This document shows positions 1-49,989 of a stretch of 64,000 nt of DNA, piece by piece. This stretch comes from an uncultured Verrucomicrobiae bacterium (GTDB taxonomy: Bacteria; Verrucomicrobiota; Verrucomicrobiia; Chthoniobacterales; UBA10450): NCBI GenBank assembly GCA_963834385.1, contig CAWIBO010000003.1, positions 1-64,000 on the forward strand. Direction: 5' to 3'. The position numbers and the translations under genes are program-made. Numbering within the stretch: position 1 is the stretch's first letter; each line of letters opens with the position of its first letter. Under the pieces are notes generated by a model that searched no databases, was not told the DNA's origin, and saw only the letters and a list, made by a program, of their open reading frames with translations.

Positions 1-1313
1 TCGAAGCCAGCTTGGCAAAGCCGGACTTGAACGCCTCCACCAGCGTGTCGATCTCCGCTTCGGTCATCGGCGTGGAGAACACGCACGCACCCGTGCTGAT
101 GATGCTGCAACCTTCGTTGTAGAGGTGATCGAGCAACGCCTTGAGTCGGCGCGACTCGTCGGGCGTCGGGTAGGCATCGCGGTAATTTCGTGGCGGCGTC
201 TGCTTCATGTGCACCAGGAACATCGAGCCCGCCCCGGTGACGCTCGCGGGCGCGCCCGTCGCGCGGATCGCGTCTTCGATGCCGTTCCTGGCCCGATCGG
301 TCAGCGCGTTCAGGCGCGCCACCGCGGGTCGGTCGAACTTCAGCATCGCCGCCATGCCCGCGGTCATGCTGATCGGGTTGGCCGTGAATGTTCCGGAGTG
401 CGGGAACACGTAGCGGGGCGACTGCGGGTTGAGCACATCCATGACTTCGGCGCGGCCGGCGACGGCGCCAATGGGAAATCCACCGCCGATGATCTTGCCC
501 AGCGCGGTCAGGTCGGGCGTGACGTCGTAGCGCGCTTGCAAGCCGGCGTGCTCGGCCCGGAACGTGATGACTTCATCGAACACCAACAGCACCCCGTGGC
601 GCGCGGACCACTCGCGCAGCGCGGTGACGAACTCCCTATCCGCCGGACACAAGCCGACGCGGTGCGGCATCAGATCGATCAAGACGCACGCGAGGTCGCT
701 TGGCGTGCTCGTCCAGGATCGCCAGCGTGCGCTCGGTGTCGTTGAACGGAAAGACAACGACGTCCTTGAGCGCGGACTCGGGTGTCCCGTGCACCAGCGG
801 AACGCTGCGCGGATGGTCCCTTTCGCCCCAGGTCGCCGGGGTGGAGCCCTGGCTCACCTCGGCGTAGTCGTAGACGCCGTGGTAGGCGCCCTCGGCCTTG
901 GCGATCTTCGGCCGCCCGGTAAAGGCGCGGGCCGCCTTCAGCGCGACCATGATCGCCTCCGTGCCCGAGTTCATGAAGCGCATCTTCTCGAACGAGCGGT
1001 TGCGGCTGCACAAGTGCTCGGCATAGCGCACCTCGATCTCGGTTCCCATCATGAACGCGGTGCCGCGGGTCATCTGCTCCGTCACCGCCTCGATGATCTC
1101 GGGGCAGGCGTGGCCGTGGATCAGGGACGCCATGTTGTTGGAGAAGTCGATGCGCGTGACGCCGTCGAGGTCGGTCACGCGGCAGCCTTTGCCGGACTCG
1201 ACGTAGGTCGGGTGATTCCCCCGCAGGATCGCGTTGCGGCTGACGCCGCCGGGAAGGACTTTGAGGGCCCGCTCGTAGAGGGCGGCGCTGCGTGAAGTGG
1301 TTTGCGTGGTCAT
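1..1313 (-). CDS. Class III PLP aminotransferase (glutamate-1-semialdehyde aminomutase-like / beta-amino acid transaminase-like); frameshift near 700; runs off the left edge
   Basis: ORF 636..1313 has LPGGVSR, DLDG..RIDF, HGHA, FMNSGTEA and EGAYHG motifs. Removing one base at ~700 continues the frame as DLACVLIDLMP..LLVFDEVITFR..PDLTALGKIIGGGFPIGA (PLP lysine) to position 1. Confidence 0.9.
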
Positions 1314-1774
1314 ATTAGGCTGCTTGGTTCGTCGCTGTTTTGAGTGGGCAATTCTCCCGCAGAGACGCTGAGACGCGGAGGGTTATATTCTTCCAGTCCA
1401 TTGACGCAGCGTGTGATACCGCTCTTCAGAACAGCTTCACCAAAGTTCAGGAGGTATCCTAGCTTCAGTCCGGTCAAACGCAGGTAGGTCTGCACCTGTT
1501 TCTTGTGTGCCGGCACGATTCGCTCGACCGACTTGAGTTCCAAAAGAACCTTATTCTCGATGATGATGTCGGCCCGAAAGCCCTCGTCAAATCTGATCCC
1601 TTTGAAGACGATCGGCACCGGGACCTGCCGCTGCACCATTAACCCACGGTCGGACAACTCACGGGCCAAAATGACTTCGTAAACCGTCTCCAGGAGCCCC
1701 GGTCCAAGCTCCCGATGAATATGGATAGCCGCTTCGAGCAGCGTCGTTCCAATTTCATTTTCTTTCACTTCCAT
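1310..1774 (-). CDS. GxxExxY protein (PD-(D/E)XK nuclease-like)
   Basis: LGPGLLETVYE, FRADIIIENKVLLELKSVE and QVQTYLRLTGLKLGYLLNFG motifs; visibly more AT-rich than its neighbours. Confidence 0.92.
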   Translation of the reverse strand: MEVKENEIGTTLLEAAIHIHRELGPGLLETVYEVILARELSDRGLMVQRQVPVPIVFKGIRFDEGFRADIIIENKVLLELKSVERIVPAHKKQVQTYLRLTGLKLGYLLNFGEAVLKSGITRCVNGLEEYNPPRLSVSAGELPTQNSDEPSSLI

Positions 1775-1807
1775 ACAAACTCTGCGCCTCGGCGTCTCTG
1801 CGCGAGA
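1353..1807. repeat. Imperfect 28-bp inverted repeats bracketing the GxxExxY gene
   Basis: 1353-1380 tctcccgcagagacgctgagacgcggag versus the reverse complement of 1780-1807, tctcgcgcagagacgccgaggcgcagag (24/28 match, internal ~9-bp periodicity). Confidence 0.8.
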
Positions 1808-2494
1808 TCATTTTCCTCGCCGCCTGCTTTGATCCGTCACGGGGTGCGAAGCAGAGGCGCAGCCGGTGCGCTCCTGCACGTAATCGAAATCGATGCCGGG
1901 GCTCAGTTCGACGAGCTGAAATCCGTTCGGCGTGACTTCGATCACGGCGAGATCGGTGTAGATGCGGTTCACGACGGCCAATCCCGTCAGCGGAAAGGTG
2001 CATTTTTGCACGAGCTTCGCCTCGCCTTCCCGGGTGCAATGCTGGGTGATGACGAAGATCGATTTTACTCCCGCGACCAGGTCCATGGCGCCGCCGACGG
2101 CGGGGATGGCGTCGGGCTCGCCCGTGGACCAGTTGGCCAGATCGCCGTTCTGCGCGACCTGGAGCGCGCCGAGCACGCAAAGATCGAGGTGGCCGCCGCG
2201 GATCATGGCGAAGCTGTCCGCGTGATGAAAGTAGGCGGCGCCCGGCAGCGCCGTCACGCGCTGTTTGCCCGCATTGAGCAGCTCGGGATCGCCTTCGCCG
2301 GGCTCGGGCGCGGGGCCCATGCCGAGCAGGCCATTTTCCGTGTGATAGATGAACGAGCGGCCCGCCGGCACGAACCTGGTGACCAGCTCCGGAATGCCAA
2401 TGCCCAGATTCACATAGGAGCCGTCGGGAATATCCTGCGCCAGGCGCTGCGCCATCTCCTCGCGCGTTCGCCCGATGGCCGCTGGCTTCGTCAT
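1808..2494 (-). CDS. pcaJ: 3-oxoadipate CoA-transferase subunit B
   Basis: YVNLGIGIP, HTENG (catalytic Glu), NAGKQ, FHHADSFAMIRGGHLD, DLANW..IPAVGGAMDL; closely resembles PcaJ. Confidence 0.88.
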   Translation of the reverse strand: MTKPAAIGRTREEMAQRLAQDIPDGSYVNLGIGIPELVTRFVPAGRSFIYHTENGLLGMGPAPEPGEGDPELLNAGKQRVTALPGAAYFHHADSFAMIRGGHLDLCVLGALQVAQNGDLANWSTGEPDAIPAVGGAMDLVAGVKSIFVITQHCTREGEAKLVQKCTFPLTGLAVVNRIYTDLAVIEVTPNGFQLVELSPGIDFDYVQERTGCASASHPVTDQSRRRGK

Positions 2495-3202
2495 GGGTAG
2501 GAGGCTCCTGCGGCGACGAGTTCCGATTCGTGGGCCGGGTTGGCGATGGCGACGACGCGATCCACGAAGATGCCGGGCGTGACGATCGACTCGGGGTCCA
2601 GCTTGCCCGGCTCGACGATCTCGGCGACCTGGACAATCGTGACCTTGCCCGCCATGGCCATCAGCGGGCTGAAGTTCCGCGCCGTCTTGTTGTAAAGGAT
2701 GTTGCCGTGGGTGTCGGCGACCCGCCCTTTGATGAGCGAGAAATCGGCGCGGAGACCGTGCTCAAGCAGATACTTTCGGTCGCCGAATTCCCGGCATTCC
2801 TTGCCTTCCGCCAGCGGCGTTCCCACCGCGGACGGGCGTGTAGAACGCCGGGATGCCCGCTCCGCCGGCGCGGATGCGCTCCGCGAGCGTTCCCTGCGGA
2901 ACCAATTCCAATTTCGTGCGCCCGCTGCGGTAGAGCTCGGGGAAGACGGTCGAGTTGGCGGTGCGCGGAAACGAACAGATGACCTTGGAAACGCGGCCCG
3001 CCTTGAGCAGCGCCGCGAGGCCGACCTGGCCGCTGCCGGTGTTGTTGCTGATCGTCGTCAGATTCGTGGCGCCCTGGTCGATCAGCGCGTGGATGAGCTC
3101 GACCGGACTGCCCGCCTCGCCGAAACCGCCGATCATGATGGTGGCGCCGTCGAAGATGTCCGCGACAGCCTCGGCCGCGCTCGCCACCCGCTTGTCGATC
3201 AT
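2491..3202 (-). CDS. pcaI: 3-oxoadipate CoA-transferase subunit A; frameshift near 2835
   Basis: ORFs 2762..3202 and 2491..2826 join: GGFGEAG, SNN, PcaI-type CSFPR, PQGTLAERIRAGG / GTPLAEGKE, KTARNFSPLMA, IVTPGIFVDRV. Confidence 0.88.
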
Positions 3203-3205
3203 CGA

Positions 3206-4693
3206 TTACGCGTCTGCGAGAGCGGCTTGAAGAGCGCCGAGACTCGACGCCTCTCCGGCCGCCGTGGCGTGACCCGGCGCCTGTCCGGGTTTCGACACAC
3301 GCGCGTAGTGATACAAGCCGGCCTCGTCGAACAGCACGCGGTCCTCGTAGTCGTCGAACCAGAGCGCCTCGGGGTTGCGGCCGACGATGCAGACCTTGCC
3401 GCGGTCGGGGGCGCTGCCGGCGTTCCGAAGAATCTTGAAGATCAGGACGCCATTCTCGCTGCCCGCGAGTCCCGGGATCCCCTCGTTGGTGACCGCCGCC
3501 ACTTCGGTCTTGCCTTTGTAATGCGTGATGGAAAGGCGCGCGTGAGTCTCGACGCCCGACAACCCCTTTTGCGAGGTGTTGAGGATATTCCACGCGGTCT
3601 CGATCGGCACGTTGAACGCCTTGTAGGCGATGATGTCGCGCCCGCAGAAGAAGTAATGGTTCTCGCCGCCGGCGCGCTTGAACTCGCGCTGCAGAATGCG
3701 GAGGGCGTCCGCGTCATCGTTGATGCCCTTCATGATCGGCGCCTGGTTCTCCACGGAGAGCCAGCCGCGCGCGGCCAGGCCCCGCATGCCTTCGCCCGTC
3801 GCGGGGACCCATTGCTTCAAGCCCTGCGCGTCCTCGAGGTAGTTTCCTTCCGCATCCTTGGCGAGGAACTCGTCCGGGTGCTCGAAGTGCAGCATCATGT
3901 GCAGGCCGACCTCCGGGTAGGTCTCGTGGAAGCGATCGAGCATCGAGAGGAAGGTGTGGTCGAAGCGCTGGGGATAGAACGCCATCTCCTTGGTGCCGAT
4001 GCGGATCGATTCGACGCCGGCTTCGGCGAGCGCGCCGAGCCAGGCCGCGATCTTGGAATTGTTCAGCACCATCGGGTCGCCGCCCGAAAGCAGGATCTCG
4101 CGCAGCTTCTCGCGTCCGCTTTCGGGGTGCACGCCGCCGTTCGCCGCGACCTCCGCGTTGTGCTGCTTGATGTAGGGGATGATCTCGGGGATCATCGCCA
4201 GACCCTTCTTTGCGATGGTGCCGTCCTTTCGCTTGATCTGCTTGCGGGCGATCAATTCTTCGCGGTAGCAGAAGCGGCAGTGGGCCGAGCAGGTCGCGAC
4301 GACATACATGAGTCCCATCTCGTACTTGTGCAGCAGGCCCTCGACGGGGCTGTAGTCCATCTGGTTCCCGGGATCCTCCGAGCCCGCAAGGTCCATCGTC
4401 TCGCCGGGGTCGGCCTTGACGATGCGCTGAATGGCGGCGCTGGTCCGGGCCAGGTCGTAGTAATGGCGCGTGATCTTCACCGGCATCCGGGATTCCACGT
4501 CACGCTCGGTGCCCTTGAGCGCTTGCAGGTTCGTCACCTCGTCCCTGGAGTAGAAGTTGAGCATGTCCGCCGGCGCCTTCTCGTGGAAGAAGGGGCCGAG
4601 CCCACTGATAATTTGCCGGTCGTAACGGCCTTCTTCGACGCTTTCGAGAAACTTCTGCTCGCGTGCGGTGGGGACGTGGGGTTGTGGTGTCAT
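3206..4693 (-). CDS. KamA-family radical SAM/PLP 2,3-aminomutase (divergent; substrate probably not lysine)
   Basis: DP..GLLHKY, CSAHCRFCYR (CxxxCxxC), REILLSGGDP, IRIGT, HFEHPDE, NQAPIMKGINDD and C-terminal YKGK (candidate PLP lysine), all collinear with lysine 2,3-aminomutase. Confidence 0.88.
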   Translation of the reverse strand: MTPQPHVPTAREQKFLESVEEGRYDRQIISGLGPFFHEKAPADMLNFYSRDEVTNLQALKGTERDVESRMPVKITRHYYDLARTSAAIQRIVKADPGETMDLAGSEDPGNQMDYSPVEGLLHKYEMGLMYVVATCSAHCRFCYREELIARKQIKRKDGTIAKKGLAMIPEIIPYIKQHNAEVAANGGVHPESGREKLREILLSGGDPMVLNNSKIAAWLGALAEAGVESIRIGTKEMAFYPQRFDHTFLSMLDRFHETYPEVGLHMMLHFEHPDEFLAKDAEGNYLEDAQGLKQWVPATGEGMRGLAARGWLSVENQAPIMKGINDDADALRILQREFKRAGGENHYFFCGRDIIAYKAFNVPIETAWNILNTSQKGLSGVETHARLSITHYKGKTEVAAVTNEGIPGLAGSENGVLIFKILRNAGSAPDRGKVCIVGRNPEALWFDDYEDRVLFDEAGLYHYARVSKPGQAPGHATAAGEASSLGALQAALADA

Positions 4694-4789
4694 CGTTCGG
4701 GCTCCTAAGGATTAATGTCGGTCGATCGGTTCGCGATTTTACGCCCAAATCCCCCTCCTATAAAGGCATTTTGTGGCGAAGCCGATCGT

Positions 4790-5029
4790 GCGAGGGACGT
4801 GCGGCGTTGCCTCTGGTGGGCGGGCGCCGGTGGTAGATCGGGGGGTCCCTCGCCGTCTGCGCGGCTCGGGATGACGCGCGCGCGGGGGGCGGTGCCTGCT
4901 CTTGCCTTGTCATCCTGAGCGGAGCGAAGGACCTCGCGAGGGACGTGCGGCGTTGCCTCTGGTGGGCGGGCGTCCGGTGGTAGATCGAGGGGTCCCTCGC
5001 CGTCTGCGCGGCTCGGGATGACGCGCGCG
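4790..5029. repeat. Two ~93-bp direct repeats containing REP-like palindromic units
   Basis: 4790-4882 and 4936-5029 are nearly identical (gcgagggacgtgcggcgttgcc...gctcgggatgacgcgcgcg). The spacer contains gtcatcctgagcggagcgaaggacctc (4909-4935), which is related in inverted orientation to ...ggtccctcgccgtctgcgcggctcgggatgac. Confidence 0.88.
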
Positions 5030-5162
5030 TGGGGGAGGGGTGCGACTTGCGACCGGCTTCCGGTGGAGGAATAGTGGCGGAGGTCGCTTCGCGTCAGACG
5101 TGAAAGCCGCATGAGGTTGTCCCTGCGGCGAGCTTCGCGAAGGGGCCAGAAAACTTACATTT

Positions 5163-6401
5163 ATGGAACCTGTCTACATTCTCGGCGGCGGCCGCACTGA
5201 TTTTAAACGCAACCTCAAAAAAGAGGGCAAAACCATCCGTGACCTGATCGTGGAGGCGGGGCAGGCGGCCCTGAAGGACGCGAAGATCGATCCCTCGCAT
5301 ATCGAAGCGGCCGCGGTGGGCAACTTCAACTCCGGCCAGTTCACCAAACAGCTTCATCTCGGCGCGTTTGTCCCGGAGATTGACCCGGCGCTCCATGGTA
5401 TTCCGACCATGCACACGGAGGCGGCCTGCGCCTCCGGCGCCCTCTCCGTCCTGCTTGGGGCGCAGTGGGTCATGGGCGGCTTCCACGACGCCGTGCTCGT
5501 CGTCGGCGCGGAACAGCAGAAAACGATGTCGTCCAAGGATGGCTCGGATGTGCTGGGAGCGGCGGCGGATTATCACGTCGAGCAGCCCGAATACGGCGAC
5601 TTTATGTTTCCGAAACTGTTCGGACGCATCGCGCAGATCTACATCGAGGAATACGGGGCTTCGGAGAAGGAACTTTCCTGGGTGGCTTACAAAAATTACG
5701 CGCATGCGCGGTTGAACCCGATGGCGCAAATGCGCGATGCGGATCTGACCTACGATTCCGCTTCCCAGGTGTCGGATAAAAACCCGAGCGTGGCGCCGCC
5801 GTTGAAAGTGTCGGATTGCTCGCAGATCACCGATGGCGGCGCGGCCCTCGTCCTCGTCTCAGGCAAATACATGGACAAGATGGGCCTCGATAAATCGAAG
5901 CACCCACGTCTCCTCGGCTTCGGCAGCTCGACTGATTATTTGGCGCTGGAGAAGAAAGACGCGCCGACGTTTTCGACTGCAAAAAAGGCAGCGGAAAAGG
6001 CATTCGGAATGGCAAATCTCACGCCAAAAGAGATGCATGGCGTCGAGGTGCACGATTGCTTTTCCATCACGGAAATCTGCGCCTACGAGATCCTCGGTCT
6101 GGCCGAGCGCGGCAAGGGCGCCGAGCTGGCGAAGAGCGGCGCGACCGCGCTCCCGCAGGTGCGGGGCGAGCACATCAAAGGCAAGGTCGGCTGGGAAATC
6201 CCGGTGAACGTGGGCGGCGGCCTGATTGGCGACGGTCATCCGGTCGGAGCGACCGGCGTGCGGCAGGTTTACGAGGCCTACCAGCAGCTCACCGGACAAG
6301 GTGGGAAGCGGCAGATTGAAGGCTGCCAGCGTTACCTGACCTTTAACATGGGCGGCAGCCTGACCACGGCCGTGGCCATGGTCTGGGGCGCGGGCGAGTA
6401 G
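5163..6401 (+). CDS. Thiolase, SCP2/SCP-x type (acetyl-CoA acyltransferase)
   Basis: EAACASG (catalytic Cys), CSQITDGGAA, EVHDCF and GHPVGATG motifs. Confidence 0.9.
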   Translation: MEPVYILGGGRTDFKRNLKKEGKTIRDLIVEAGQAALKDAKIDPSHIEAAAVGNFNSGQFTKQLHLGAFVPEIDPALHGIPTMHTEAACASGALSVLLGAQWVMGGFHDAVLVVGAEQQKTMSSKDGSDVLGAAADYHVEQPEYGDFMFPKLFGRIAQIYIEEYGASEKELSWVAYKNYAHARLNPMAQMRDADLTYDSASQVSDKNPSVAPPLKVSDCSQITDGGAALVLVSGKYMDKMGLDKSKHPRLLGFGSSTDYLALEKKDAPTFSTAKKAAEKAFGMANLTPKEMHGVEVHDCFSITEICAYEILGLAERGKGAELAKSGATALPQVRGEHIKGKVGWEIPVNVGGGLIGDGHPVGATGVRQVYEAYQQLTGQGGKRQIEGCQRYLTFNMGGSLTTAVAMVWGAGE

Positions 6402-6404: not shown

Positions 6405-6452
6405 TTATGGAGGCCGGGTTGCCAAGACGGCTTACAAAGCCGTCCTCCATAA
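6405..6452. terminator. Hairpin between convergent genes (possible bidirectional terminator)
   Basis: ttatggagg...cctccataa outer stem with an inner gacggct/agccgtc stem. Confidence 0.45.
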
Positions 6453-6459
6453 AGCCTGG

Positions 6460-7629
6460 CTACGGCTTCATCACGACCTTGATGCAGCCATCTTCCTTGT
6501 CGCGGAATTTTTTGTACATCTCCGGTCCGTCATCGAGCCGGCAGCGGTGGGTGATGACGAAGGAAGGATCGATCTCGTTCTGCTGGATGCGCCGGAGGAG
6601 ATCGTCCGTCCAGCGGTTCACGTGCGTCTGGCCCATGCGAAAGGTGAGACCCTTGTTCATGGCCGCGCCGAAGGGGATTTTGTCGATCAATCCCCCGTAA
6701 ACGCCGGGGATCGAGAGAATGCCGGCGGGCCGGCAGACATACATCATCTCGCGCAGGACGTGCGGCCGGTCGGTCTCGAGCATGACCGCCTGTTTCAAGC
6801 GGTCGTAGATGTGCTCGAGCGAACTGGTGGCGTGCGCCTCCATGCCGACCGCGTCGATGCACTTGTCCGGGCCTTTCCCGCGGGTGAGATCGTTTAAACG
6901 TTCCAGGACGCTTTCCTCCTCGAAATTGATGGTGACGGCGCCGGCGGCGCGCGCCATGGCGAGGCGTTCCGGCACCCGGTCGATCGCCACCACCTGCTGG
7001 GCGCCGAGGAGGAGGGCGCTCCGGATGGCAAACTGCGCCACCGGCCCGCATCCCCAGATGGCGACGATGTCGCTCGACTGAATGTCGCATTGCGCGGCGG
7101 CCTGCCAGCCGGTCGGGAAAATGTCGCTCAGGAAAAGCACCTGCTCATCGGTCATGCCCTCCGGGACCTTGACCGGGGCGACATCGGCAAAGGGCACGCG
7201 GACATATTCCGCCTGGCCGCCGGCGTAGCCGCCGGTGAGATGGGTGTAGCCGAAAAGACCGGCGGTGGTGTGACCGAAGAGCTTGTCCGCCGTCTCCTTG
7301 TTGCGATTGGTCCGCTCGCAGACGGAATAATTGCCGCGCCGGCATTGCTCGCATTCGCCGCAGATGATGGTGAACGGGACGACGACCCGGTCGCCGACCT
7401 TGAGTTTCTTGTTCCCCTTGCCGACCTCGACGACCTCCCCCATGAACTCGTGGCCGATGATGTCGCCCTTCTCCATCCCGACCATGAAGTTGTTGTAGAG
7501 ATGGAGATCGCTGCCGCAGATGGCGGTGCTGGTGACCTTGACGATGGCGTCGCGCGGATCCTCGATGACGGGATCCGGGACTTTCTCCACGCGAACGTCT
7601 TCCTTGCCGTGCCAGCAGATTGCCCTCAT
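6460..7629 (-). CDS. Zinc-dependent alcohol dehydrogenase, formaldehyde dehydrogenase-like (YbdR-type)
   Basis: [41 protein letters not shown] and GCGPV motifs; start placed at ATG 7629. Confidence 0.9.
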
Positions 7630-7918
7630 AAAAAAATTTCCCGAAGCGACCGCGACGAAAGGCCGCGGGTTACTTGTAAGGAAACGCGCGCGCGAACGAT
7701 GCCGGTCGCTAGAAACGGCCCGGCACTGGCGTCGGCAGGGGCTGGTCGCTGAAGAACTGGCGTCCCGGATTCGAAACGGAGCTGTCCCGGAAGCGGCCCC
7801 ATTTGGCTCTTTTGCGCCCGCGCTGTTCATTCGCAAACCATACGACGGGAGACAGTTATAAATGTTGATGGCATCGTGGCACAGGCCCTGCGATAGGGGA
7901 GGCACCCTGCTTCTCCCA

Positions 7919-10412
7919 ATGATCCTTGATTCATTCCGCCAGGACGTTCGCGTCGGCTTCCGCGTCCTCTTCAAAGAAAAAGCGTTTTGCATCCTTGCCG
8001 TGACGGTGCTGGCCCTCGGCATCTGCGGCGTGACCACGCAGTTCACGGTGGTGAACGCCTTCCTGCTGCGCGGCTTTTCGTTTCCGAACCCGCACGAGCT
8101 GATGAATGTCGGCCTGCTCGATCCGCAGGCGAACCAGAACCAGAACAACGGCGGCCTCGGGTTCATCCCCACGGCGCAGGATTACGAAGACCTGCGGGAG
8201 GGTCAGAAATCGTTCGCGCTCATCGCGGGTTATCTCAACGGCTCGACCATCAACGTTACCCACGAAAACTCGCCCCAGCGTTACACCGGCGGCTACGTGA
8301 CGGAGGACTTTTTCAAGATCATCGGGGTCAACCCGATCCTGGGCCGCGACTTCACCGCGGCGGACAACCGGCAGGGCGCGGAGAAGGTGGCGCTTGCTCG
8401 GCCACGAGATCTGGCAGCGGGACTTCGGCGGCGACCCGGGCATCGTGGGGCAGGCCATCCGGATCAATGGGAAGGCGGCCACGATCATCGGGGTGATGCC
8501 GAAAGGGTTCAAGTTCCCGGTGTCGGAGCAGCTTTGGGTTCCCTATTACAATGAGTTCCCGCTAAAGCCGCGCGAGGATCCGTCCGCCAACGGCATGGCC
8601 ATCATGGGCCGGCTGAAGCCGGGCGTTTCGATTGACCAGGCGAACGCGGAGTTTATTGGCCTGGCCCGGCGCCTGGCGGAGGAATTTCCGAAGACGAACG
8701 GGCAACTGACGATGGCGAGCGTGCAGCCGCTGATCAACAACTTCGCCGGCCCGCAGTTGCGGCAGACGGTCTACGCCATGCTCGGCGCGGTCATCATCGT
8801 GCTGCTCATCGCCTGCGTGAACGTGATGAACATGCAGTTCGGGCGGGCGGCGCTGCGGGCGAAGGAACTGGCCATCCGGGGGGCGCTCGGGGCCTCGCGC
8901 TGGCGCATCGTCCGCCAGATGCTGACCGAGAGTTTTCTGGTGGCGGCGATGGGCGCGGTGGTGGGAGTGATGATGGCCTACTGGGCGGTCGAACTGTTGA
9001 GCCGTTCGCTCAAGGCGCTTCCTTTTCCTTTGCCCTACTGGGTTTCGTTTGAGATCGACGGAAGCGTGCTCCTCGTGACCGTGGGCGTGACCCTGCTGGC
9101 GACGCTGGTCTCCGGCTTTATCCCGGCCTACCTGAGCGCGCGGGCGAACCCGGCCGAAGTGATGAAGGAAGGGGGACGCGGGAACAGCAGCCGGCTGGTC
9201 AACGTCATCACCCGCGTCCTGGTGGTGGCGCAGATTGCGCTGACGGCGGCACTCCTCATCGCGGCGACCCTGCAGGTGAAGTCGGTCCGCAACCAGGTGA
9301 CCCTGGATTACGGCTATGACGAGGAGGCGGTCTACGCCGCGCGCATGGGATTAATGGAGGGCGACTATCCCGGGGACGAAGCGCGGAACCAATTTTACAT
9401 CAAGACCCTGCGTCATCTCCGGAACGATCCGCAATTTGAGAAAGCGGCCCTGAGCGGGCGGTTCCGGATGACGTTTGGCGGCTTTGGACAGTATGAGGTG
9501 GATGGTCAGACCTATGTCACCGATCGGGACCGGCCCCGGGGCAACTTCGAGTTCGTCTCCGACGGCTACTTCGACACCCTCGGACTGAAGATCCTGCAGG
9601 GGCGCGATTTCACGATTGATGACAGCGATGCGCGGCAGCCGGTCGCGATTGTAAACGCCGGGTTCGCCCGCAGATATTTCGGGAACGAAAGCCCGCTGGG
9701 GCGGCGGGTGCGTGTTTTCAATCCGGCCTCTCCCCAGCCGTGGCGGACAATCGTGGGCGTGGTGCCCGACACCCAGATGCAGGGACCATTCAACCAGCAG
9801 ACCGACAATACCGGATTCTATATTCCGATTCTGGGGACGCCGCCCGCCCCGCAGTTCTGCACCATTGTGGTGAAACCGCGGCCGGGCGTCCGCGCGGAAA
9901 CCCTGGGCCCGGTCCTGGGCCAGGCGGTGGCGCAGCTCGATTCGAACCTGCCTCTTTATTTCGGCGGGACGCCGGAGAAGCTGCACGACGAGATCCTCGG
10001 GGTGAACCGGGTGACCGCGACGCTTTTCACCATCTTTGGCATCATCGCCTTTGTTCTCTCCGCGGTCGGGCTTTACGGGGTGATGAGTTTCTCGGTGAAC
10101 CAGCGCACGCAGGAGATTGGAATTCGCATGGCGTTGGGCGCGGATTCATCCCGTATTTTCCGCATGGTCATGACCCAGGGGGCATGGCAGCTGGGGATCG
10201 GCCTGGCGATCGGGGCCAGTGGCATCGCGCTGCTGCTCCGTCTGGCGGGGGAGAATGTGCTGCAGACCTTTCTTTACGAGGTCAACGCGCACGATCCGGC
10301 GATTTACATTGCCGTCGGCGCCCTGCTGACCGCGGTGGCGGCCATTTCCTGCTTTGTCCCGGCGCGCCGGGCCACCCGGGTGAATCCGATGGTGGCGTTA
10401 CGGGCGGAGTAG
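7919..10412 (+). CDS. Duplicated MacB/FtsX-type ABC permease (ADOP family); frameshift near 8395
   Basis: [14 protein letters not shown]-terminus, [21 protein letters not shown], and a second [42 protein letters not shown]. Confidence 0.9.
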
Positions 10413-10843: not shown

Positions 10844-12823
10844 TTACGGCAGGCGATAAACCTCGATCAGCCCGAGGCCGGTGGTGCTGTCGCGACCGCG
10901 GAGAATGGCCGTGTAATGGCCGCGCGGCAGGAGGAGACGGAGGGCGGATTCGCGGGCGTCGCCCGGGGCGAGGCCGGTCTCATTCACCGGAGCGGGATCA
11001 GGGTTCTGCCAGTCATCATTGAACCCGACCAGGCCGCCATCAGCGTTTCGGACCTCCAGGGTGGGATCGGAAAGGGTGTCAGAAAGTCCGAAGCCGGCCA
11101 GGGTCGGACCCAGGGCGCGAACCACCACCGCGGCGCGGCCGCTGCCATCGACGCCGTGGCCCTGCCCGACGATAAGGCCGCCGATGATGACTTCGTCGCC
11201 CGTGCGGGCATGTCCACGGGTGCTGATGTTGGCCAGGAGCGATGAAGTTCCCATCTCCGTGTCGTAAATCTCGAGCAGAGCAATGCCACTGGTGGCGTTC
11301 TTCCCTTTCACGATCGCGGTGTAATTGCCGGGCTCGACCTGCCGAAGAAGAGCGGCTTCCACGTCGTGCCCGGGCGCCAGACCGCTTGCCGTGATGGCCG
11401 CTTCATTGGTGCTGCGCCAGTCGTCGTTCGAAGCCAGCAGGCCGCTGGCGTTGTGCAGCTCGAGAACGGGATCCTGCAGGGGAGAAGCGACAAACGCCCC
11501 GAGTGACGGGCCGAGCGCGCGGATCATGACAACCTTGGCCGTGGGACCTGTGACAATGAAACCGCCGATGGCGACCGAATCGCCCGTTTCCACGGGGAGA
11601 CGGGTTGAGATGTTCAGGGCTTTCCCGCTATGGACGACCGAGCTGGAGTCGTGGGGCAGCGTGCCGTTGTAAAACTCGGAGAGATTGTCCTCGCCGTCAT
11701 CGTCCGGATCGCCTGCCGGGTCCGTGACGCTGTGGGTGGTTTCCCAGGCATCGGGCAAACCGTCGTTATCGGAATCGAGATTGCCGCGAATGACAAACTG
11801 ATAGGAGCCTTCGTTGGCGTCGTTATTGAGAATGGTGACGGTGGCGGTGCGTGTGCCCACCGCGGATGGATCGAAGGTGATCTGGAAGGTGGTGGAACCG
11901 TTCGCGGCCACGGGAGAACCGGGCTGGGCGGTGACCGAAAAGTCGCCGGAACCGGCGAGGGTCACCTTGGGCACTGCGGGCAGGGTCAGGGAGCCGGTGC
12001 CGGTGTTCGCGATGGTGAAGGTGCGGGTAACCTGTCCCTGCGCGATGCTGACCACGCCGAAATCCGTGCCGTCGGCGCTGCCCGGGGTGGCATCATTGTG
12101 GGGGATGGAAATGGCGTTGCCCCGCACATCGATCTCGGGGGCGAACCCGCCGGAGATGGTGAACTTGGTCCGGTGAATATTGTTGTCGTTGTTCGTTTCC
12201 AGCAGCCTGCCTTCAAAATCGACCTCCAGCTCCAGCCAGTAGGTGCCGGCGCTGACGCCGGTGATCACGATGTTCTGGTCGGGGAGGGTGTAATCGTAGA
12301 CATCGATCCAGCCGACCGAGATGCCCTGGAAAGTTTCGCAATCGCGGTATTGCGCGGTGGCCGGGGTGCCCGGCGGCGGCGGGTCGCTCTTGCGGACATC
12401 GAGCAGGCAAAAGCTGACTTTTTCGCTCGTGCCGAGCACGCCGCCGACGCCGTCATTGGCCAGGACCTCGCGCAGGCTGTAACGGGCGTAGCCCTGAAAA
12501 TGAATATGACCGTGGGTGGGATGATACTCGAAGGTGCCCACGCGATGATCGGTGTAGGTGCCGTCCGTGTTATAAACCCGCTGATCCACGTCCTGCAGAT
12601 CGCCGTGCACCGTGGCACCCCGCAGGTCGATCGGTCCGGGTCCGTTGTTCATCGACCAGGAACTGAAATAGAGGCGTCGCACGCCGTTGTTGTCGTAGGC
12701 GGTAAAGGGCGTCTTGCTTTGGATAACGAGGTCGGGCAGCAGCGGCGTCGGCGCCTGCGCCTGGGCAGGGTGCGGTGTCAGCAGACAAACCGCAGGCAGC
12801 AGGAGAAGGAAACGCCGGAACAT
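10844..12823 (-). CDS. Secreted lysyl-oxidase-like protein with Ig-like (choice-of-anchor D/ASH), Asp-rich Ca-binding and paired C-terminal NISTR domains
   Basis: Signal peptide; HPTHGHIHF copper motif, KVSFCLLD, QGISVGWIDVY; TDFG..TRTFTIANTG; DSDNDGLPDAWE; ALNISTR and LANISTR. Confidence 0.85.
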   Translation of the reverse strand: MFRRFLLLLPAVCLLTPHPAQAQAPTPLLPDLVIQSKTPFTAYDNNGVRRLYFSSWSMNNGPGPIDLRGATVHGDLQDVDQRVYNTDGTYTDHRVGTFEYHPTHGHIHFQGYARYSLREVLANDGVGGVLGTSEKVSFCLLDVRKSDPPPPGTPATAQYRDCETFQGISVGWIDVYDYTLPDQNIVITGVSAGTYWLELEVDFEGRLLETNNDNNIHRTKFTISGGFAPEIDVRGNAISIPHNDATPGSADGTDFGVVSIAQGQVTRTFTIANTGTGSLTLPAVPKVTLAGSGDFSVTAQPGSPVAANGSTTFQITFDPSAVGTRTATVTILNNDANEGSYQFVIRGNLDSDNDGLPDAWETTHSVTDPAGDPDDDGEDNLSEFYNGTLPHDSSSVVHSGKALNISTRLPVETGDSVAIGGFIVTGPTAKVVMIRALGPSLGAFVASPLQDPVLELHNASGLLASNDDWRSTNEAAITASGLAPGHDVEAALLRQVEPGNYTAIVKGKNATSGIALLEIYDTEMGTSSLLANISTRGHARTGDEVIIGGLIVGQGHGVDGSGRAAVVVRALGPTLAGFGLSDTLSDPTLEVRNADGGLVGFNDDWQNPDPAPVNETGLAPGDARESALRLLLPRGHYTAILRGRDSTTGLGLIEVYRLP

Positions 12824-48487: not shown

Positions 48488-48895
48488 ATGACCTGGCTTC
48501 ACTCCCTCACGGGGACTTTCCTCCCGGCCCAGATTCTCCTGGCCGCCCTCCTCGCCATCCTTTTCCTCCAGTCAGGGCTCGACAAGCTCCTGCATTGGAA
48601 GGGAAACCTCGAATGGCTCACCGGCCATTTCTCGAAAACCCCGCTCGCCGGGCAGGTGCCCATCCTGCTCGCGCTTTTGACCGGGCTCGAGGTGGCGGCG
48701 GGCGCGTTCAGCGCCGCGGGCGTTCTTCTGCTCGTCGCCGGGTTCGGCAGTTTCGTCGCCTACCTCGGCGCCCTGCTTTCCGCCCTCGCCCTCCTCGCGC
48801 TCTTCTTTGGCCAGCGGGTGGCGAAGGATTATCCCGGCGCAGCCAGTCTGGTGCCGTATTTCCTGGTCGCGCTCCTCGGCCTTTTCATTCTCTAG
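48488..48895 (+). CDS. DoxX-like membrane protein
   Basis: FLQSGLDK..W.GN..WL..HF and FGQRVAKDY.GA. Confidence 0.8.
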   Translation: MTWLHSLTGTFLPAQILLAALLAILFLQSGLDKLLHWKGNLEWLTGHFSKTPLAGQVPILLALLTGLEVAAGAFSAAGVLLLVAGFGSFVAYLGALLSALALLALFFGQRVAKDYPGAASLVPYFLVALLGLFIL

Positions 48896-49989
48896 GCCGG
48901 CTCGTCATTCAGGAAGCGGGCGAGCAACCGGTGAAAATGGTGCGTGCCCACTTCGCGGCGCGGTGAGTAACGGCCCCGGCGGGCCAGGCGCGATTTCACC
49001 CCGCGCTGGACCGATTCCACCACCGCTTCGTCTTCCATCTCCACCCGGTGCAGGTCGGTCCCCACGCCCTCCGCCCGCCGGGTTTCGTCCCAGACGTAAC
49101 TCAGGAAGGAGACACGGGTGCGATCGGGTCCGAGCGGGCAGACCACATTCACCGAGATGCCCCACGGATAAAAATTCAGCATCAGGTTCGGGAAGAGCCA
49201 GTAATAAAAAGCGGCCACGTGCTGTCCCGCCTCCGGGTGCCCCGGCGGCAGATCAAAGGTGCCGCCGGCCGATTTGGTCAGCCCCAGTTGCAGGCTCGCC
49301 AGGGGATAAAGTTCCGTGCGGTATTCCCCGTAGTCGAGCCCGGCCAGGCTGGTGCCGTGCACATGCGGGATGTGAAATTCCTCGAGGTAATTGTCACAGT
49401 AGAGCGCCCAGTTCGCCTTGATCAGGTAATCACGGCTCGAGGCGGGATCGAGCCGGGCCTCTTCCAGCGGCAGGAAGGCGACGCGCGCCGCCAGCGGCCC
49501 GATCCAGTCCGCCAGGCTGAAGGCCGGCGCCAGGCTGCTGAAGAGAAACGGCCCCCAGCGTTCCAGGGGAAGGCGCCGCAGGTCGTCCTCCCCGGATGGA
49601 AAATCCTTCACCTCCTCGAACTCGGGCATGGAGGTGAACCGGCCATCGAGGCAGAAACGGCGGCCGTGGTAGCGGCAGCGCAACGCTTTCAGGTGACCGT
49701 CTCCCTCCACCACCAGCGCGGCGCGATGGGTGCAGACATTGGAGAGGCAATGGACCTGCAGGGAATCGTCCACCGTCAGGACAAGCGGTTCATCCAGGCA
49801 GCCTTCGAGCAGGGTGAAGGGATGAACGTGGCCCGGGGCCTTCGCCTGGTCGGCGGGACCGACAAGGTGCCAGGAGCGGGCGAAGATTTTTTCCAGCGCA
49901 CGGGCGTGCCAGGCGGGATCGGCATAGACTTCAGGCGGGGGCGTGGAAGCCCGCGTGATGTCCCCGGCGATGACAAACTCCTGCGGCAT
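48892..49989 (-). CDS. Rieske non-heme iron oxygenase alpha subunit (choline monooxygenase-like)
   Basis: NVCTHR..CRYHG, NW..DNYLEEFHIPHVH and ED..VESVQRG. Confidence 0.9.
   Translation of the reverse strand: MPQEFVIAGDITRASTPPPEVYADPAWHARALEKIFARSWHLVGPADQAKAPGHVHPFTLLEGCLDEPLVLTVDDSLQVHCLSNVCTHRAALVVEGDGHLKALRCRYHGRRFCLDGRFTSMPEFEEVKDFPSGEDDLRRLPLERWGPFLFSSLAPAFSLADWIGPLAARVAFLPLEEARLDPASSRDYLIKANWALYCDNYLEEFHIPHVHGTSLAGLDYGEYRTELYPLASLQLGLTKSAGGTFDLPPGHPEAGQHVAAFYYWLFPNLMLNFYPWGISVNVVCPLGPDRTRVSFLSYVWDETRRAEGVGTDLHRVEMEDEAVVESVQRGVKSRLARRGRYSPRREVGTHHFHRLLARFLNDEPA

What the first reader, a model, noticed from the sequence alone, without database searches (positions are those of the whole stretch)
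1..6401. Candidate new catabolic pathway: radical-SAM aminomutase, beta-transaminase, PcaIJ and thiolase (2-aminoadipate -> 3-aminoadipate -> 3-oxoadipate)
Seen in the sequence: a tightly packed minus-strand operon of KamA-like gene, pcaI, pcaJ, an inserted GxxExxY gene and a class III aminotransferase. The gaps are 3 bp between KamA-like and pcaI, and a 4-bp overlap between pcaI and pcaJ. A thiolase is transcribed divergently. No aromatic ring-cleavage or lactone genes are in view, nor lysine-fermentation (kamDE, kdd, kce) or efp/epmA genes. Established knowledge: KamA-family enzymes convert alpha- to beta-amino acids; characterised beta-amino-acid transaminases are GSA-like class III enzymes; PcaIJ activates 3-oxoadipate; thiolysis of 3-oxoadipyl-CoA yields succinyl-CoA and acetyl-CoA. 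Inference: the four activities form a complete route for an amino acid, best matched by L-2-aminoadipate (a lysine catabolite and fungal lysine precursor). It would feed the lower beta-ketoadipate pathway without an aromatic substrate and regenerate the succinyl-CoA donor. I know of no described 2-aminoadipate 2,3-aminomutase.
Basis: partly seen in the sequence, partly recalled or inferred. Interest (0 to 1): 0.92.

Follow-up and report, generated by a model that had tools for sequence, protein, structure and literature searches.

The report
Predicted 2-aminoadipate aminomutase breakdown operon
A gene cluster shared by soil and marine bacteria probably burns the lysine product 2-aminoadipate by moving its amino group one carbon over with a radical enzyme and then splitting the chain into succinyl-CoA and acetyl-CoA, a route I could not find described in print.

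Summary
The genes are there in the stated order, with the stated 3-bp gap and 4-bp overlap. However, pcaI, the aminotransferase and the tail of pcaJ each carry one extra base that breaks the frame. Housekeeping genes in the window are broken the same way, and short-read contigs from four studies lack exactly these bases, so I read them as assembly errors. KamA-like > pcaI > pcaJ > aminotransferase is colinear in 61 of 61 related loci that hold all four genes (Chthoniobacterales and Phycisphaerales). The divergent thiolase is not PcaF-type. A PcaF-like thiolase follows the operon in relatives and lies at the start of another contig of this genome. New here: that contig also carries L-lysine 6-transaminase and piperideine-6-carboxylate dehydrogenase, both above their curated cut-offs, and together they make L-2-aminoadipate. 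In one relative these two genes sit directly upstream of the KamA-like gene on the same strand. The module occurs almost only in genomes with that dehydrogenase (5 of 5 and 24 of 25). No aromatic or lysine-fermentation genes were found in the genome. The scan had flagged this module four times before on other DNA. I found no paper describing it.

The parts
3206..4693 (-). KamA-family radical SAM / PLP aminomutase, 495 aa, intact. Proposed L-2-aminoadipate 2,3-aminomutase.
   Evidence: ORF. Best NCBIfam hit TIGR00238, 84.9 bits (cut-off 199.2); no Pfam hit. Cluster cysteines C135/C139/C142, G204-G205-D206 and K395 are invariant in alignment A2. AlphaFold model pLDDT 89.8; best PDB match is lysine 2,3-aminomutase 2A5H, E 7e-16. 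The lysine-binding D293 and D330 of 2A5H are replaced by R352 and the S388-T390 stretch.
2491..3202 (-). 3-oxoacid CoA-transferase subunit A (pcaI/scoA family). Frame broken by one extra base near 2834-2837.
   Evidence: Two pieces, 2762..3202 and 2491..2826, match TIGR02429 positions 1-127 and 127-221 (189.1 and 132.9 bits, cut-off 128.5). Sequence at the break. Contigs of 4 runs lack one letter at 2834 or 2837. Relatives read straight through.
1808..2494 (-). 3-oxoacid CoA-transferase subunit B (pcaJ/scoB family). The last ~18 codons are shifted by one extra base near 1862-1863.
   Evidence: TIGR02428 291.4 bits, above the cut-off of 243.55. Nearest solved structure is SCOT subunit B, 3RRL, 221 bits. 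The indel is seen in 4 runs. The tail found in relatives is present in another frame of the window.
1310..1774 (-). GxxExxY / PD-(D/E)XK protein. An inserted passenger gene, not a pathway step.
   Evidence: TIGR04256 134.9 bits and PF13366. GC falls to 0.588 in 1001-2000. Found at 50% identity or more in only 6 of 40 Chthoniobacterales loci and 0 of 40 Phycisphaerales loci.
2..1313 (-). GSA-like class III aminotransferase, proposed 3-aminoadipate (beta) transaminase. Frame broken by one extra base near 698-700. Reaches the contig's first bases.
   Evidence: Two pieces, 636..1313 and 2..757, match PF00202 positions 9-133 and 189-400. The intact orthologue L003:14301-15614 best matches PDB 6K8H (388 bits) and ForI 6SSD (359 bits), ahead of GSA aminomutases (~240 bits) and beta-phenylalanine aminotransferase 4AO9 (213 bits). 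Indel; relatives read through.
4694..5162 (.). Divergent intergenic region holding a promoter-like site for the KamA-like operon and a ~147-bp tandem duplication.
   Evidence: Sigma-70-like site at 4764-4736 on the minus strand, a consensus match only. Direct repeats 4790-4888 and 4936-5035, 97-100% identical.
5163..6401 (+). SCP2-type thiolase, divergent. Whether it belongs to the pathway is uncertain.
   Evidence: PF22691 and PF00108. Best family NF004936 at 352.2 bits (cut-off 375). Lies upstream of the KamA-like gene in 30 of 40 Chthoniobacterales loci and 0 of 40 Phycisphaerales loci.

Best explanation
The window holds the core of a catabolic module for L-2-aminoadipate, the product of lysine breakdown.

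Proposed steps:
1. L-lysine is converted to piperideine-6-carboxylate/allysine by L-lysine 6-transaminase, encoded on contig C1 of the same genome.
2. Piperideine-6-carboxylate dehydrogenase oxidises this to L-2-aminoadipate (also on C1).
3. The KamA-like radical SAM/PLP enzyme (3206..4693) moves the amino group from C2 to C3, giving 3-aminoadipate.
4. The GSA-like class III aminotransferase (2..1313) converts 3-aminoadipate to 3-oxoadipate.
5. The PcaIJ-like CoA-transferase (1808..3202) makes 3-oxoadipyl-CoA from succinyl-CoA.
6. A PcaF-like thiolase (start of C1, convergent with the operon in relatives) splits it into succinyl-CoA and acetyl-CoA.

All six carbons of lysine would be kept, whereas the 2-oxoadipate/glutaryl-CoA route loses two as CO2.

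Shown here: the gene families, their conserved order, the linkage to the lysine genes, and the co-occurrence.
Inferred: every substrate, the direction of flux, and the join of the two contigs.

The three frame breaks in the window are most likely assembly errors, so the module is probably functional in this organism.
For: (1) Conserved module. 446 of 459 candidate stretches in genome contigs encode a relative, and the best 80 were kept. In 61 of 61 loci that hold all four genes, they are colinear on one strand. In 17 of the 19 other loci, the locus ends before the missing gene.

(2) Thiolase. A PcaF-like gene lies convergent after the aminotransferase in 26 of 40 Phycisphaerales loci (9-135 bp away, one at 1.5 kb) and in 18 of 40 Chthoniobacterales loci (110 bp to 5.8 kb away). 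L056:14207-15412 scores 564.6 bits on TIGR02430 (cut-off 597), against 311.9 on PhaA. G000's own copy is at C1:1024-2231, at the start of that contig.

(3) Link to lysine. In G000, C1:8492-10039 scores 795.2 bits on NF050084 (cut-off 730) and C1:10191-11585 scores 585.5 bits on TIGR03251 (cut-off 520.8). In L025 the array ACAD, LAT, P6C dehydrogenase, KamA-like, pcaI, pcaJ, aminotransferase is contiguous on one strand. In the same genome, G331, the dehydrogenase (788.8 bits) ends 285 bp before the KamA-like gene. In L030 and L065 the pair is 2.2 and 4.0 kb upstream. On shared contigs elsewhere the distance is 11-46 kb (G315, G094, G075, G003).

(4) Co-occurrence. In the order-level sample around G000, the module is in 5 of 151 genomes and all 5 hold the dehydrogenase, against 26 of 146 without the module. 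In the Phycisphaerales-order sample the figures are 24 of 25 against 52 of 96. Fisher p is 3e-4 and 5e-5, but related genomes are not independent.

(5) Active site. The carboxylate-binding R134 of lysine 2,3-aminomutase is kept as R144. The lysine-binding D293 is R352 and D330 falls in S388-T390. The PLP lysine K337 is K395. The roles of the 2A5H residues are recalled from the literature.

(6) No other source of 3-oxoadipate. pcaD scores 97 bits at best (cut-off 256), and there is no match for pcaH or PaaA in G000, which is 89.6% complete.

(7) Frame breaks are errors. A MacB-type permease, a Mur ligase, CarA, MlaD and Mfd are split as well. Contigs from 4 runs of 4 studies lack exactly the extra bases.
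Against: - No enzyme of the module has been assayed, and substrate assignment rests on context.
- The PcaF-like thiolase scores just below its equivalog cut-off (564.6 against 597).
- The CoA-transferase cannot be told apart from acetoacetate-specific ScoAB. Its nearest solved structures are SCOT enzymes.
- Arginine at the D293 position is not special to this family. It is nearly invariant (90% or more) across the 30 KamA relatives in alignment A2, including short uncharacterised ones, so it does not point to 2-aminoadipate in particular.
- In Phycisphaerales the dehydrogenase is unlinked, 400 kb or more away in 5 of 5 genomes. It is also common in genomes without the module (52 of 96), so co-occurrence there is weak.
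- One module-bearing genome, G206, showed no dehydrogenase.
- 11 of 16 genomes of the same family in the order-level sample have the dehydrogenase without the module, so another outlet for 2-aminoadipate exists in this lineage.
- The join between the left end of C3 and the start of C1 is inferred from synteny, not seen.
- The regulator next to the module in L054 is RpiR-type, which is more usual for sugar-phosphate than for amino-acid pathways.
- The frame breaks could be real mutations of this strain, because the contigs laid on the window come from relatives (90-99% alike).
Confidence: 0.62

Rival explanations
1. The enzyme logic is the same, but the substrate is L-glutamate. Glutamate becomes beta-glutamate and then 3-oxoglutarate. 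That is either activated and cleaved to malonyl-CoA and acetyl-CoA, or it decarboxylates to acetoacetate, which a ScoAB-type transferase and a thiolase turn into two acetyl-CoA.
For: An acidic substrate fits the loss of both lysine-binding aspartates and the arginine at the D293 position. The CoA-transferase belongs to the pcaI/scoA and pcaJ/scoB subfamilies, which include acetoacetate enzymes, and its nearest solved structures are SCOT. Glutamate 2,3-aminomutase is a known activity of the family (TIGR04368 exists).
Against: The protein scores 73.4 bits on TIGR04368, against a cut-off of 650. The conserved thiolase scores far better as 3-oxoadipyl-CoA thiolase (564.6 bits) than as PhaA-type acetoacetyl-CoA thiolase (311.9). 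The linked genes make 2-aminoadipate, not glutamate. Glutamate has a direct one-step outlet to the TCA cycle (general knowledge).
Confidence: 0.12
2. The enzyme logic is the same, but the substrate is another amino acid. Examples are 2-aminopimelate (giving glutaryl-CoA and acetyl-CoA), or lysine or arginine through their beta-isomers.
For: The family is uncharacterised and falls below every equivalog cut-off. Sequence alone cannot fix the chain length of the substrate.
Against: A basic substrate fits poorly with the loss of D293 and D330. No BKACE (Kce) match was found in G000, and no KamD match either, though that search had no positive control. No gene that would make 2-aminopimelate is linked to the module, whereas the 2-aminoadipate-forming pair is.
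Confidence: 0.1
3. In this particular genome the module is a decaying pseudogene cluster. The single-base insertions in pcaI, pcaJ, the aminotransferase and the PcaF-like gene would then be real.
For: There are three breaks in 5.2 kb of the window and two more in the PcaF-like gene on C1. The KamA-like gene and the SCP2-type thiolase are unbroken. The contigs laid on the window are from related strains, not shown to be from this strain.
Against: Essential or housekeeping genes in the same window are broken in the same way: Mur ligase, CarA, Mfd, MlaD and a MacB-type permease. The assembly is 2.9 Mb in 5 contigs, which I take as typical of long-read assemblies with residual indel errors; the sequencing method is not stated anywhere. 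All breaks are +1 insertions relative to short-read contigs from 4 studies.
Confidence: 0.1
4. The genes are unrelated neighbours. pcaIJ and pcaF would serve an aromatic beta-ketoadipate or phenylacetate pathway, and the KamA-like gene would do something else.
For: PcaIJ and PcaF are best known from aromatic catabolism (general knowledge). One Rieske ring-hydroxylating oxygenase alpha-like ORF lies 44 kb away at 48892..49989.
Against: The four genes are colinear on one strand in 61 of 61 loci across two phyla, and in the window they have a 3-bp gap and a 4-bp overlap. No pcaD, pcaH or PaaA was found in G000. No such genes are among the conserved neighbours.
Confidence: 0.03

Closest known systems
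Lysine 2,3-aminomutase (KamA/LAM, Clostridium subterminale, PDB 2A5H) and the KamA family (AblA, EpmB, glutamate and arginine 2,3-aminomutases)
   Same: Same fold: 2A5H is the top PDB match at E 7e-16, with the next match (viperin) at 3.5e-5. The CxxxCxxC cluster motif, the GGD motif, the PLP lysine (K395, equivalent to K337) and the carboxylate arginine (R144, equivalent to R134) are all kept. It should therefore use the same radical 1,2-amino shift.
   Different: About 80 residues longer than 2A5H's 416 (495 aa). It is below every family cut-off: TIGR00238 84.9 against 199.2, LAM 66.4 against 525.4, glutamate aminomutase 73.4 against 650, arginine aminomutase 81.5 against 600, EpmB 72.6 against 369.3. 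Both lysine-binding aspartates are replaced. It has only 5 cysteines, so the C-terminal zinc site that I recall for LAM cannot be formed. Its gene context is catabolic (CoA-transferase, transaminase, thiolase), not lysine fermentation, osmolyte synthesis or EF-P modification.
Lower beta-ketoadipate pathway (PcaIJ 3-oxoadipate:succinyl-CoA transferase and PcaF 3-oxoadipyl-CoA thiolase)
   Same: The same two enzyme families in the same order of action. pcaJ is above its subfamily cut-off and the thiolase scores best as TIGR02430. The succinyl-CoA produced can serve again as CoA donor.
   Different: There is no ring-cleavage, cycloisomerase, decarboxylase or enol-lactonase partner in the genome. 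The feed would be an amino acid. The thiolase is just under the equivalog cut-off.
Known bacterial routes from lysine through 2-aminoadipate (LAT and piperideine-6-carboxylate dehydrogenase, then 2-oxoadipate to glutaryl-CoA, or HglS to 2-hydroxyglutarate)
   Same: The first two enzymes are the same, and in G000 both are above their equivalog cut-offs.
   Different: After 2-aminoadipate the amino group would be shifted, not removed at C2. There is no decarboxylation, and the products are succinyl-CoA and acetyl-CoA. HglS (PF07063) was not found in 0 of 81 genomes of the family.
Lysine fermentation of anaerobes (KamA, KamDE, Kdd, Kce, Kal, AtoAD) and its beta-transaminase variant (Perret et al. 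2011, PMC3149608; seen only in the search listing)
   Same: It also starts with a KamA enzyme and also uses a family I CoA-transferase, a thiolase and, in the variant, a class III beta-transaminase.
   Different: No BKACE (Kce) or KamD match was found in G000. The aminomutase lacks the lysine-binding residues. In that variant the transaminase acts on an acyl-CoA, whereas here the CoA-transferase would act after transamination.
Beta-amino-acid transaminases of the GSA-aminomutase-like subgroup (4AO9, 2YKU) and ForI (6SSD)
   Same: The intact orthologue matches this subgroup of fold-type I class III enzymes: 6K8H 388 bits, ForI 359, GSA aminomutases about 240, 4AO9 213.
   Different: It is not a close relative of any characterised beta-transaminase, and its substrate is unknown. 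It is below the hemL equivalog cut-off even when its two pieces are summed (about 330 against 527).

Membership tests
KamA family radical SAM aminomutases | CxxxCxxC motif for the [4Fe-4S] cluster | tested here: met
   C135, C139 and C142 are invariant in 30 of 30 sequences of A2 and align with the cluster motif of 2A5H.
KamA family radical SAM aminomutases | PLP-binding lysine (K337 of 2A5H) and the SAM-binding GGD motif | tested here: met
   K395 in GKTEV aligns with K337 in GGKTPV, bridged by P0265. G204, G205 and D206 are invariant and align with LSGGD of 2A5H. The roles of these residues are recalled from the literature.
KamA family radical SAM aminomutases | Curated family score (TIGR00238, cut-off 199.2 bits) | tested here: not met
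   84.9 bits, and no Pfam family at E up to 0.001. This is a divergent branch outside the curated model.
KamA family radical SAM aminomutases | Fold of lysine 2,3-aminomutase | tested here: met
   Model pLDDT 89.8, pTM 0.87. 2A5H is the top match at E 7.2e-16, TM-score on the target 0.67 over 430-452 columns; the next fold scores E 3.5e-5.
Lysine 2,3-aminomutase (TIGR03820) | Equivalog score, and the two aspartates (D293, D330) that hold the lysine epsilon-amino group | tested here: not met
   66.4 bits against a cut-off of 525.4. D293 aligns with R352 and D330 with the S388-T390 stretch, which has no acidic residue.
Glutamate 2,3-aminomutase (TIGR04368) | Equivalog score | tested here: not met
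   73.4 bits against a cut-off of 650.
EpmB (EF-P beta-lysylation) | Equivalog score | tested here: not met
   72.6 bits against a cut-off of 369.3. I did not search the genome for epmA or efp.
3-oxoacid CoA-transferase, pcaIJ/scoAB subfamilies | Subfamily scores for subunits A and B | tested here: met
   Subunit B: 291.4 bits against 243.55. The two pieces of subunit A: 189.1 and 132.9 bits against 128.5.
3-oxoacid CoA-transferase, pcaIJ/scoAB subfamilies | Specificity for 3-oxoadipate rather than acetoacetate | not testable with these tools
   NCBIfam has only the joint subfamily. The solved relatives are SCOT and AtoAD-type enzymes. I could not fetch any characterised PcaIJ for a tree.
3-oxoadipyl-CoA thiolase PcaF (TIGR02430) | Equivalog score (cut-off 597) | tested here: not met
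   L056:14207-15412 scores 564.6 bits. This is its best family by a wide margin over PhaA (311.9) but lies under the cut-off. The G000 copy scores 319.9 and 201.8 bits in two pieces.
Aromatic beta-ketoadipate / phenylacetate pathways | Presence of upstream genes (pcaH/G, pcaD, paaA) | tested here: not met
   pcaD scores 97.3 bits at best (cut-off 255.85). No match for pcaH or PaaA in G000, which is 89.6% complete.
Lysine fermentation pathway | Kce (BKACE, PF05853) and KamD (PF09043) | tested here: not met
   No match in G000. The KamD search had no positive control, so that half is weak.
Lysine-to-2-aminoadipate upper pathway (LAT and P6C dehydrogenase) | Both equivalogs present and linked to the module | tested here: met
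   TIGR03251 585.5 bits against 520.8 and NF050084 795.2 bits against 730, at G000:C1:8492-11585. Directly upstream of the KamA-like gene in L025/G331.

The most novel reading that the evidence does not exclude
A third, carbon-conserving branch of bacterial lysine catabolism: lysine, 2-aminoadipate, 3-aminoadipate, 3-oxoadipate, then succinyl-CoA plus acetyl-CoA. It would be opened by the first 2-aminoadipate 2,3-aminomutase, a deep and highly conserved branch of the KamA family (77-95% identical between two phyla). It would work in soil and marine PVC bacteria that are not obligate fermenters. That would make the lower beta-ketoadipate pathway an amino-acid pathway as well as an aromatic one, and 3-aminoadipate a natural metabolite.
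Probability: 0.55. Interest if true: 0.85.

Novelty: new variant of a known kind. Interest (0 to 1): 0.8.

Why it matters
- Lysine breakdown in bacteria is still incompletely mapped, and the step after 2-aminoadipate has few assigned genes.
- If the reading holds, the KamA family gains a new substrate class.
- 3-Aminoadipate would become a natural metabolite. I found no paper containing '3-aminoadipate', and no biochemical use of the related terms (listing only, one reference-list mention read).
- The PcaIJ/PcaF steps would be shown to serve amino-acid as well as aromatic catabolism.
- The route loses no CO2 between lysine and succinyl-CoA plus acetyl-CoA. This matters for carbon budgets of oligotrophic soil and marine bacteria.
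- It also matters for engineered routes from lysine to adipate-type C6 diacids.
- It is directly testable, because a genome labelled as an isolate rather than a MAG (CP159477.1, locus L054) carries the compact form of the module.

Tried and rejected
- HglS (PF07063), as a possible complementary outlet for 2-aminoadipate in relatives that lack the module, was found in 0 of 81 genomes of the family. This gave no information.
- Saccharopine dehydrogenase (PF03435) gave one weak match at C3:233299 (28.9 bits). I did not follow it.
- The right flank of the window is not conserved with the module: ADH 0 loci, MacB-type permease 3 loci above 70% identity, and only partial C-terminal hits for the lysyl-oxidase-domain protein. 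I rejected these as parts of the system.
- ORF 6407..6700 (97 aa) after the thiolase was a possible DUF35 partner. It has no family match and no hit in any of the 80 loci, so I treat it as spurious. The same holds for ORF 4705..5112, which overlies the tandem repeat.
- A tree to separate PcaIJ from ScoAB could not be made, because no characterised PcaIJ sequence was available. The plasmid search gave only generic names.
- The ESM Atlas gave only an unnamed cluster and generic radical SAM clusters.
- The representatives search returned no protein above any equivalog cut-off among the 24 I scanned. I therefore had no true glutamate or arginine aminomutase to compare residue by residue.
- Conserved 'ORFs' without a family in the neighbourhood clustering (clusters 12, 17, 22, 25 and others) mostly lie antisense to real genes in this GC-rich DNA. 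I did not pursue them.
- Depth of metagenome contigs over the window was not used to rank genes.
- Literature searches found nothing on this route. The one mention of 'beta-aminoadipic' was a misprint in a reference list (passage read).

Full report
WHAT IS IN THE WINDOW

The window is the first 64 kb of contig C3 of a 2.9-Mb, five-contig genome that is 89.6% complete. Its closest relatives are MAGs labelled Chthoniobacterales or Verrucomicrobiae.

On the minus strand lie, in order of transcription:
- a KamA-like ORF, 3206..4693, 495 aa and intact;
- pcaI-like, 2491..3202;
- pcaJ-like, 1808..2494;
- a GxxExxY / PD-(D/E)XK gene, 1310..1774;
- a GSA-like class III aminotransferase, 2..1313.

A thiolase, 5163..6401, is transcribed the other way.

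FRAME BREAKS

- pcaI is read in two frames that meet near 2826-2837.
- The aminotransferase is read in two frames that meet near 690-700.
- The last ~18 codons of pcaJ are shifted.

I read these as assembly errors, for two reasons. First, housekeeping genes elsewhere in the window are split in the same way: a Mur ligase, CarA, MlaD, Mfd and a MacB-type permease. Second, contigs of four public soil or root metagenome runs from four studies, laid on 1-5200, each lack one letter at exactly these places: 698 or 700, 1862 or 1863, and 2834 or 2837. Relatives read straight through all three places. The laid contigs are 90-99% alike, so they come from relatives and are not proven to be this strain. 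Real decay in this strain therefore remains a minor rival.

THE MODULE IS CONSERVED

Of 459 candidate stretches in one-genome-per-species contigs, 446 encode a relative of the KamA-like protein, and the best 80 were returned. I split these 80 by identity into two groups.
- 40 are at 89-95% identity. All are labelled Verrucomicrobiota, Chthoniobacterales or Spartobacteria, except L076, which is labelled Burkholderiales.
- 40 are at 77-85% identity. All are labelled Phycisphaerales or Planctomycetota, except L050, which is labelled Alphaproteobacteria.

In 61 of 61 loci that hold all four genes at 50% identity or more, the order KamA-like, pcaI, pcaJ, aminotransferase is kept on one strand. In 17 of the other 19, the locus ends before the missing gene; the exceptions are L024 and L076.

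The module is patchy. It was found in 5 of 151 genomes of an order-level sample, all in one family. Within that family it was in 14 of 81 genomes and 10 of 36 genera. It was in 25 of 121 genomes of the Phycisphaerales-order sample. Near-80% identity between two phyla, together with this patchiness, suggests horizontal spread.

WHAT THE PROTEINS ARE

The KamA-like protein has no Pfam hit. It is far below every NCBIfam cut-off of the family: TIGR00238 84.9 against 199.2, LAM 66.4 against 525.4, glutamate aminomutase 73.4 against 650, arginine aminomutase 81.5 against 600, and EpmB 72.6 against 369.3.

Its AlphaFold model is nevertheless confident (pLDDT 89.8, pTM 0.87). Its best PDB match is lysine 2,3-aminomutase 2A5H (E 7e-16, 430-452 columns), eleven orders of magnitude ahead of the next radical SAM fold.

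I mapped the active site using the numbering printed for 2A5H, together with alignment A2.
- The cluster cysteines are C135, C139 and C142.
- The LSGGD motif (G204-D206) is kept.
- The PLP lysine K337 corresponds to K395.
- R134 corresponds to R144.
- D293 aligns with R352.
- D330 aligns with the S388-T390 stretch, which has no acidic residue.

The roles of the 2A5H residues are recalled from the literature, not taken from a call.

One caution applies. Arginine at the D293 position is nearly invariant among all 30 KamA relatives in A2, including short uncharacterised ones. It argues against lysine as substrate, but it does not point specifically to 2-aminoadipate.

The CoA-transferase subunits meet the pcaI/scoA and pcaJ/scoB subfamily cut-offs. 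Their nearest solved relatives are SCOT enzymes. I could not separate 3-oxoadipate specificity from acetoacetate specificity.

The intact aminotransferase of L003 is nearest to PDB 6K8H (388 bits) and ForI (359 bits). GSA aminomutases (about 240 bits) and beta-phenylalanine aminotransferase 4AO9 (213 bits) come next. This places it in the GSA-like subgroup that holds the known beta-transaminases.

TWO THIOLASES

The divergent thiolase in the window is of the SCP2 / 'thiolase domain-containing' type (NF004936 352.2 bits, cut-off 375). It accompanies the module in 30 of 40 Chthoniobacterales loci and in none of 40 Phycisphaerales loci.

A different, canonical thiolase lies convergent after the aminotransferase.
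- In Phycisphaerales it is present in 26 of 40 loci, 9-135 bp away, with one at 1.5 kb.
- In Chthoniobacterales it is present in 18 of 40 loci, 110 bp to 5.8 kb away.

It scores 564.6 bits on the PcaF equivalog TIGR02430 (cut-off 597), against 311.9 on PhaA.

In this genome the PcaF-like gene is at C1:1024-2231. That is at the start of another contig, in the orientation expected if the start of C1 follows the left end of C3. It carries two more frame breaks. The join itself is inferred.

On the same contig, 6-9 kb from the PcaF-like gene, lie two adjacent genes:
- piperideine-6-carboxylate dehydrogenase, C1:8492-10039, NF050084 795.2 bits against a cut-off of 730;
- L-lysine 6-transaminase, C1:10191-11585, TIGR03251 585.5 bits against a cut-off of 520.8.

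Together they convert lysine to L-2-aminoadipate.

In relatives the linkage is as follows.
- In L025 the genes for a FadB-like protein, an acyl-CoA dehydrogenase, the transaminase, the dehydrogenase, the KamA-like protein, pcaI, pcaJ and the aminotransferase form one co-directional array. In that genome (G331) the dehydrogenase scores 788.8 bits and ends 285 bp before the KamA-like gene.
- In L030 and L065 the pair lies 2.2 and 4.0 kb upstream on the same strand.
- In L006 the dehydrogenase appears about 9.6 kb downstream.
- On shared contigs elsewhere the distances are 11 kb (G315), 15.5 kb (G094), 23 kb (G003) and 46 kb (G075).
- In five Phycisphaerales genomes the dehydrogenase is present (4 of 5 above the cut-off) but 400 kb or more away.

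CO-OCCURRENCE

In the order-level sample around G000, 5 of 5 module carriers hold the dehydrogenase, against 26 of 146 non-carriers. In the Phycisphaerales-order sample the figures are 24 of 25 against 52 of 96; the exception is G206, and the 52 include the unpublished G264. Fisher p values are 3e-4 and 5e-5. Related genomes are not independent, so these overstate the case. What the data show is nesting of the module within dehydrogenase-bearing genomes.

OTHER CONTEXTS EXCLUDED

G000 gave no match for pcaH or PaaA, and only 97 bits for pcaD (cut-off 256). It gave no BKACE (Kce) match. It gave no KamD match either, but that search rang in no control genome. It has no second KamA-family gene: the only other match has E 4e-4 over 44 residues.

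MECHANISM

I propose this sequence: lysine, then (LAT) allysine/P6C, then (P6C dehydrogenase) L-2-aminoadipate, then (KamA-like enzyme, SAM/PLP radical 1,2-shift) 3-aminoadipate, then (class III aminotransferase) 3-oxoadipate, then (PcaIJ-like, using succinyl-CoA) 3-oxoadipyl-CoA, then (PcaF-like) succinyl-CoA plus acetyl-CoA.

Shown: the family assignments, the conserved order, the linkage and the co-occurrence. Inferred: all substrates and the direction of flux.

The main rival is glutamate through beta-glutamate. The PcaF-like score and the lysine-gene linkage count against it. The ScoAB-like transferase does not exclude it.

LITERATURE AND EARLIER NOTES

- No paper in the library holds '3-aminoadipate'.
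- Searches that combined aminomutase, CoA-transferase, thiolase, aminoadipate and 3-oxoadipate, that used several names for the proposed enzyme, and that covered beta-glutamate gave nothing that describes such a route. I saw listings and abstract starts only.
- One passage was read in PMC9854754 and proved to be a misprint.
- Papers outside the library cannot be excluded.
- The scan's own index holds four earlier AI notes on the same module in other genomes, all reading it as a 2-aminoadipate route. None mentions the LAT and dehydrogenase linkage. I treated them as leads only.

VERDICT

This is a real, strongly conserved module. It is a new variant of known kinds of enzyme and pathway. It is of high interest and directly testable.

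Noticed in passing
L003, L005, L017, L020, L024, L035, L036, L038, L040 (between pcaI and pcaJ); L008, L013, L033, L040 (between pcaJ and the aminotransferase); window 1310-1774: In Chthoniobacterales the junctions inside this operon are a hot spot for inserted cassettes of lower GC (0.54-0.58). The cassettes carry a NotI-like endonuclease with a methylase (L038), a BglII-like endonuclease with a methylase (L040), RelB (L005), ParE (L024), a TIR Pycsar/CAP12-like protein (L020), Ser/Thr kinase-TPR proteins (L005, L035), a PEP-CTERM protein (L003) and the GxxExxY gene (window and 6 loci). Phycisphaerales loci have none.
   Followed up: partly
window 4790-5035: Tandem duplication of about 147 bp (4790-4888 and 4936-5035, 97-100% identical) in the divergent intergenic region. 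Many metagenome contigs pile up and break here, which suggests a dispersed repeat. ORF 4705..5112 is probably its translation artefact.
   Followed up: partly
window 7862-10412, 27941-29351, 37017-39086, 42612-43724, 55016-57749: Housekeeping and transport genes (MacB-type permease, Mur ligase, CarA, MlaD, Mfd) are split or truncated by frame changes. The assembly carries many single-base indel errors.
   Followed up: partly
window 10844-12823 (-): A 659-aa protein with a lysyl oxidase domain (PF01186, E 2.8e-11) and Ig-like domains. Lysyl oxidases make peptidyl allysine, a precursor of 2-aminoadipate. It is not a conserved neighbour of the module; only partial C-terminal hits were found in 2 loci.
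   Followed up: partly
window 48892-49989 (-): A lone Rieske / ring-hydroxylating oxygenase alpha-subunit-like gene, 44 kb from the operon. No partner genes were seen.
   Followed up: no
G000:C1:4680-5936 (L092); L006:18436-19686; L065:6377-7858: A ~418-aa ORF with no Pfam or NCBIfam family travels with the PcaF-like gene or the KamA-like gene in 6 of 40 Chthoniobacterales loci and in G000. Its function is unknown. It could be a transporter or an accessory protein of the module.
   Followed up: partly
L054:9057-9887 (-): In the genome labelled as an isolate (CP159477.1), an RpiR-family regulator (HTH_6 and SIS domains) is divergent from the KamA-like gene.
   Followed up: no
L093 (Tistrella mobilis plasmid pTM2, NC_017966.1:337565-352188): The closest plasmid-borne homologue of PcaJ (67.8% identity) sits with its subunit A next to a DUF1338 (HglS-family) gene, an aldehyde dehydrogenase, a PLP aminotransferase and a GcvA regulator. 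This may be another 2-aminoadipate/2-oxoadipate context for this CoA-transferase clade.
   Followed up: no
window 1292-1861: In all four metagenome runs the stretch carrying the GxxExxY gene is a separate contig that ends at about 1292-1299 and 1861. Its depth is lower than that of the flanking contigs. This hints that only part of the population carries the cassette, but contig depth is a poor measure.
   Followed up: no
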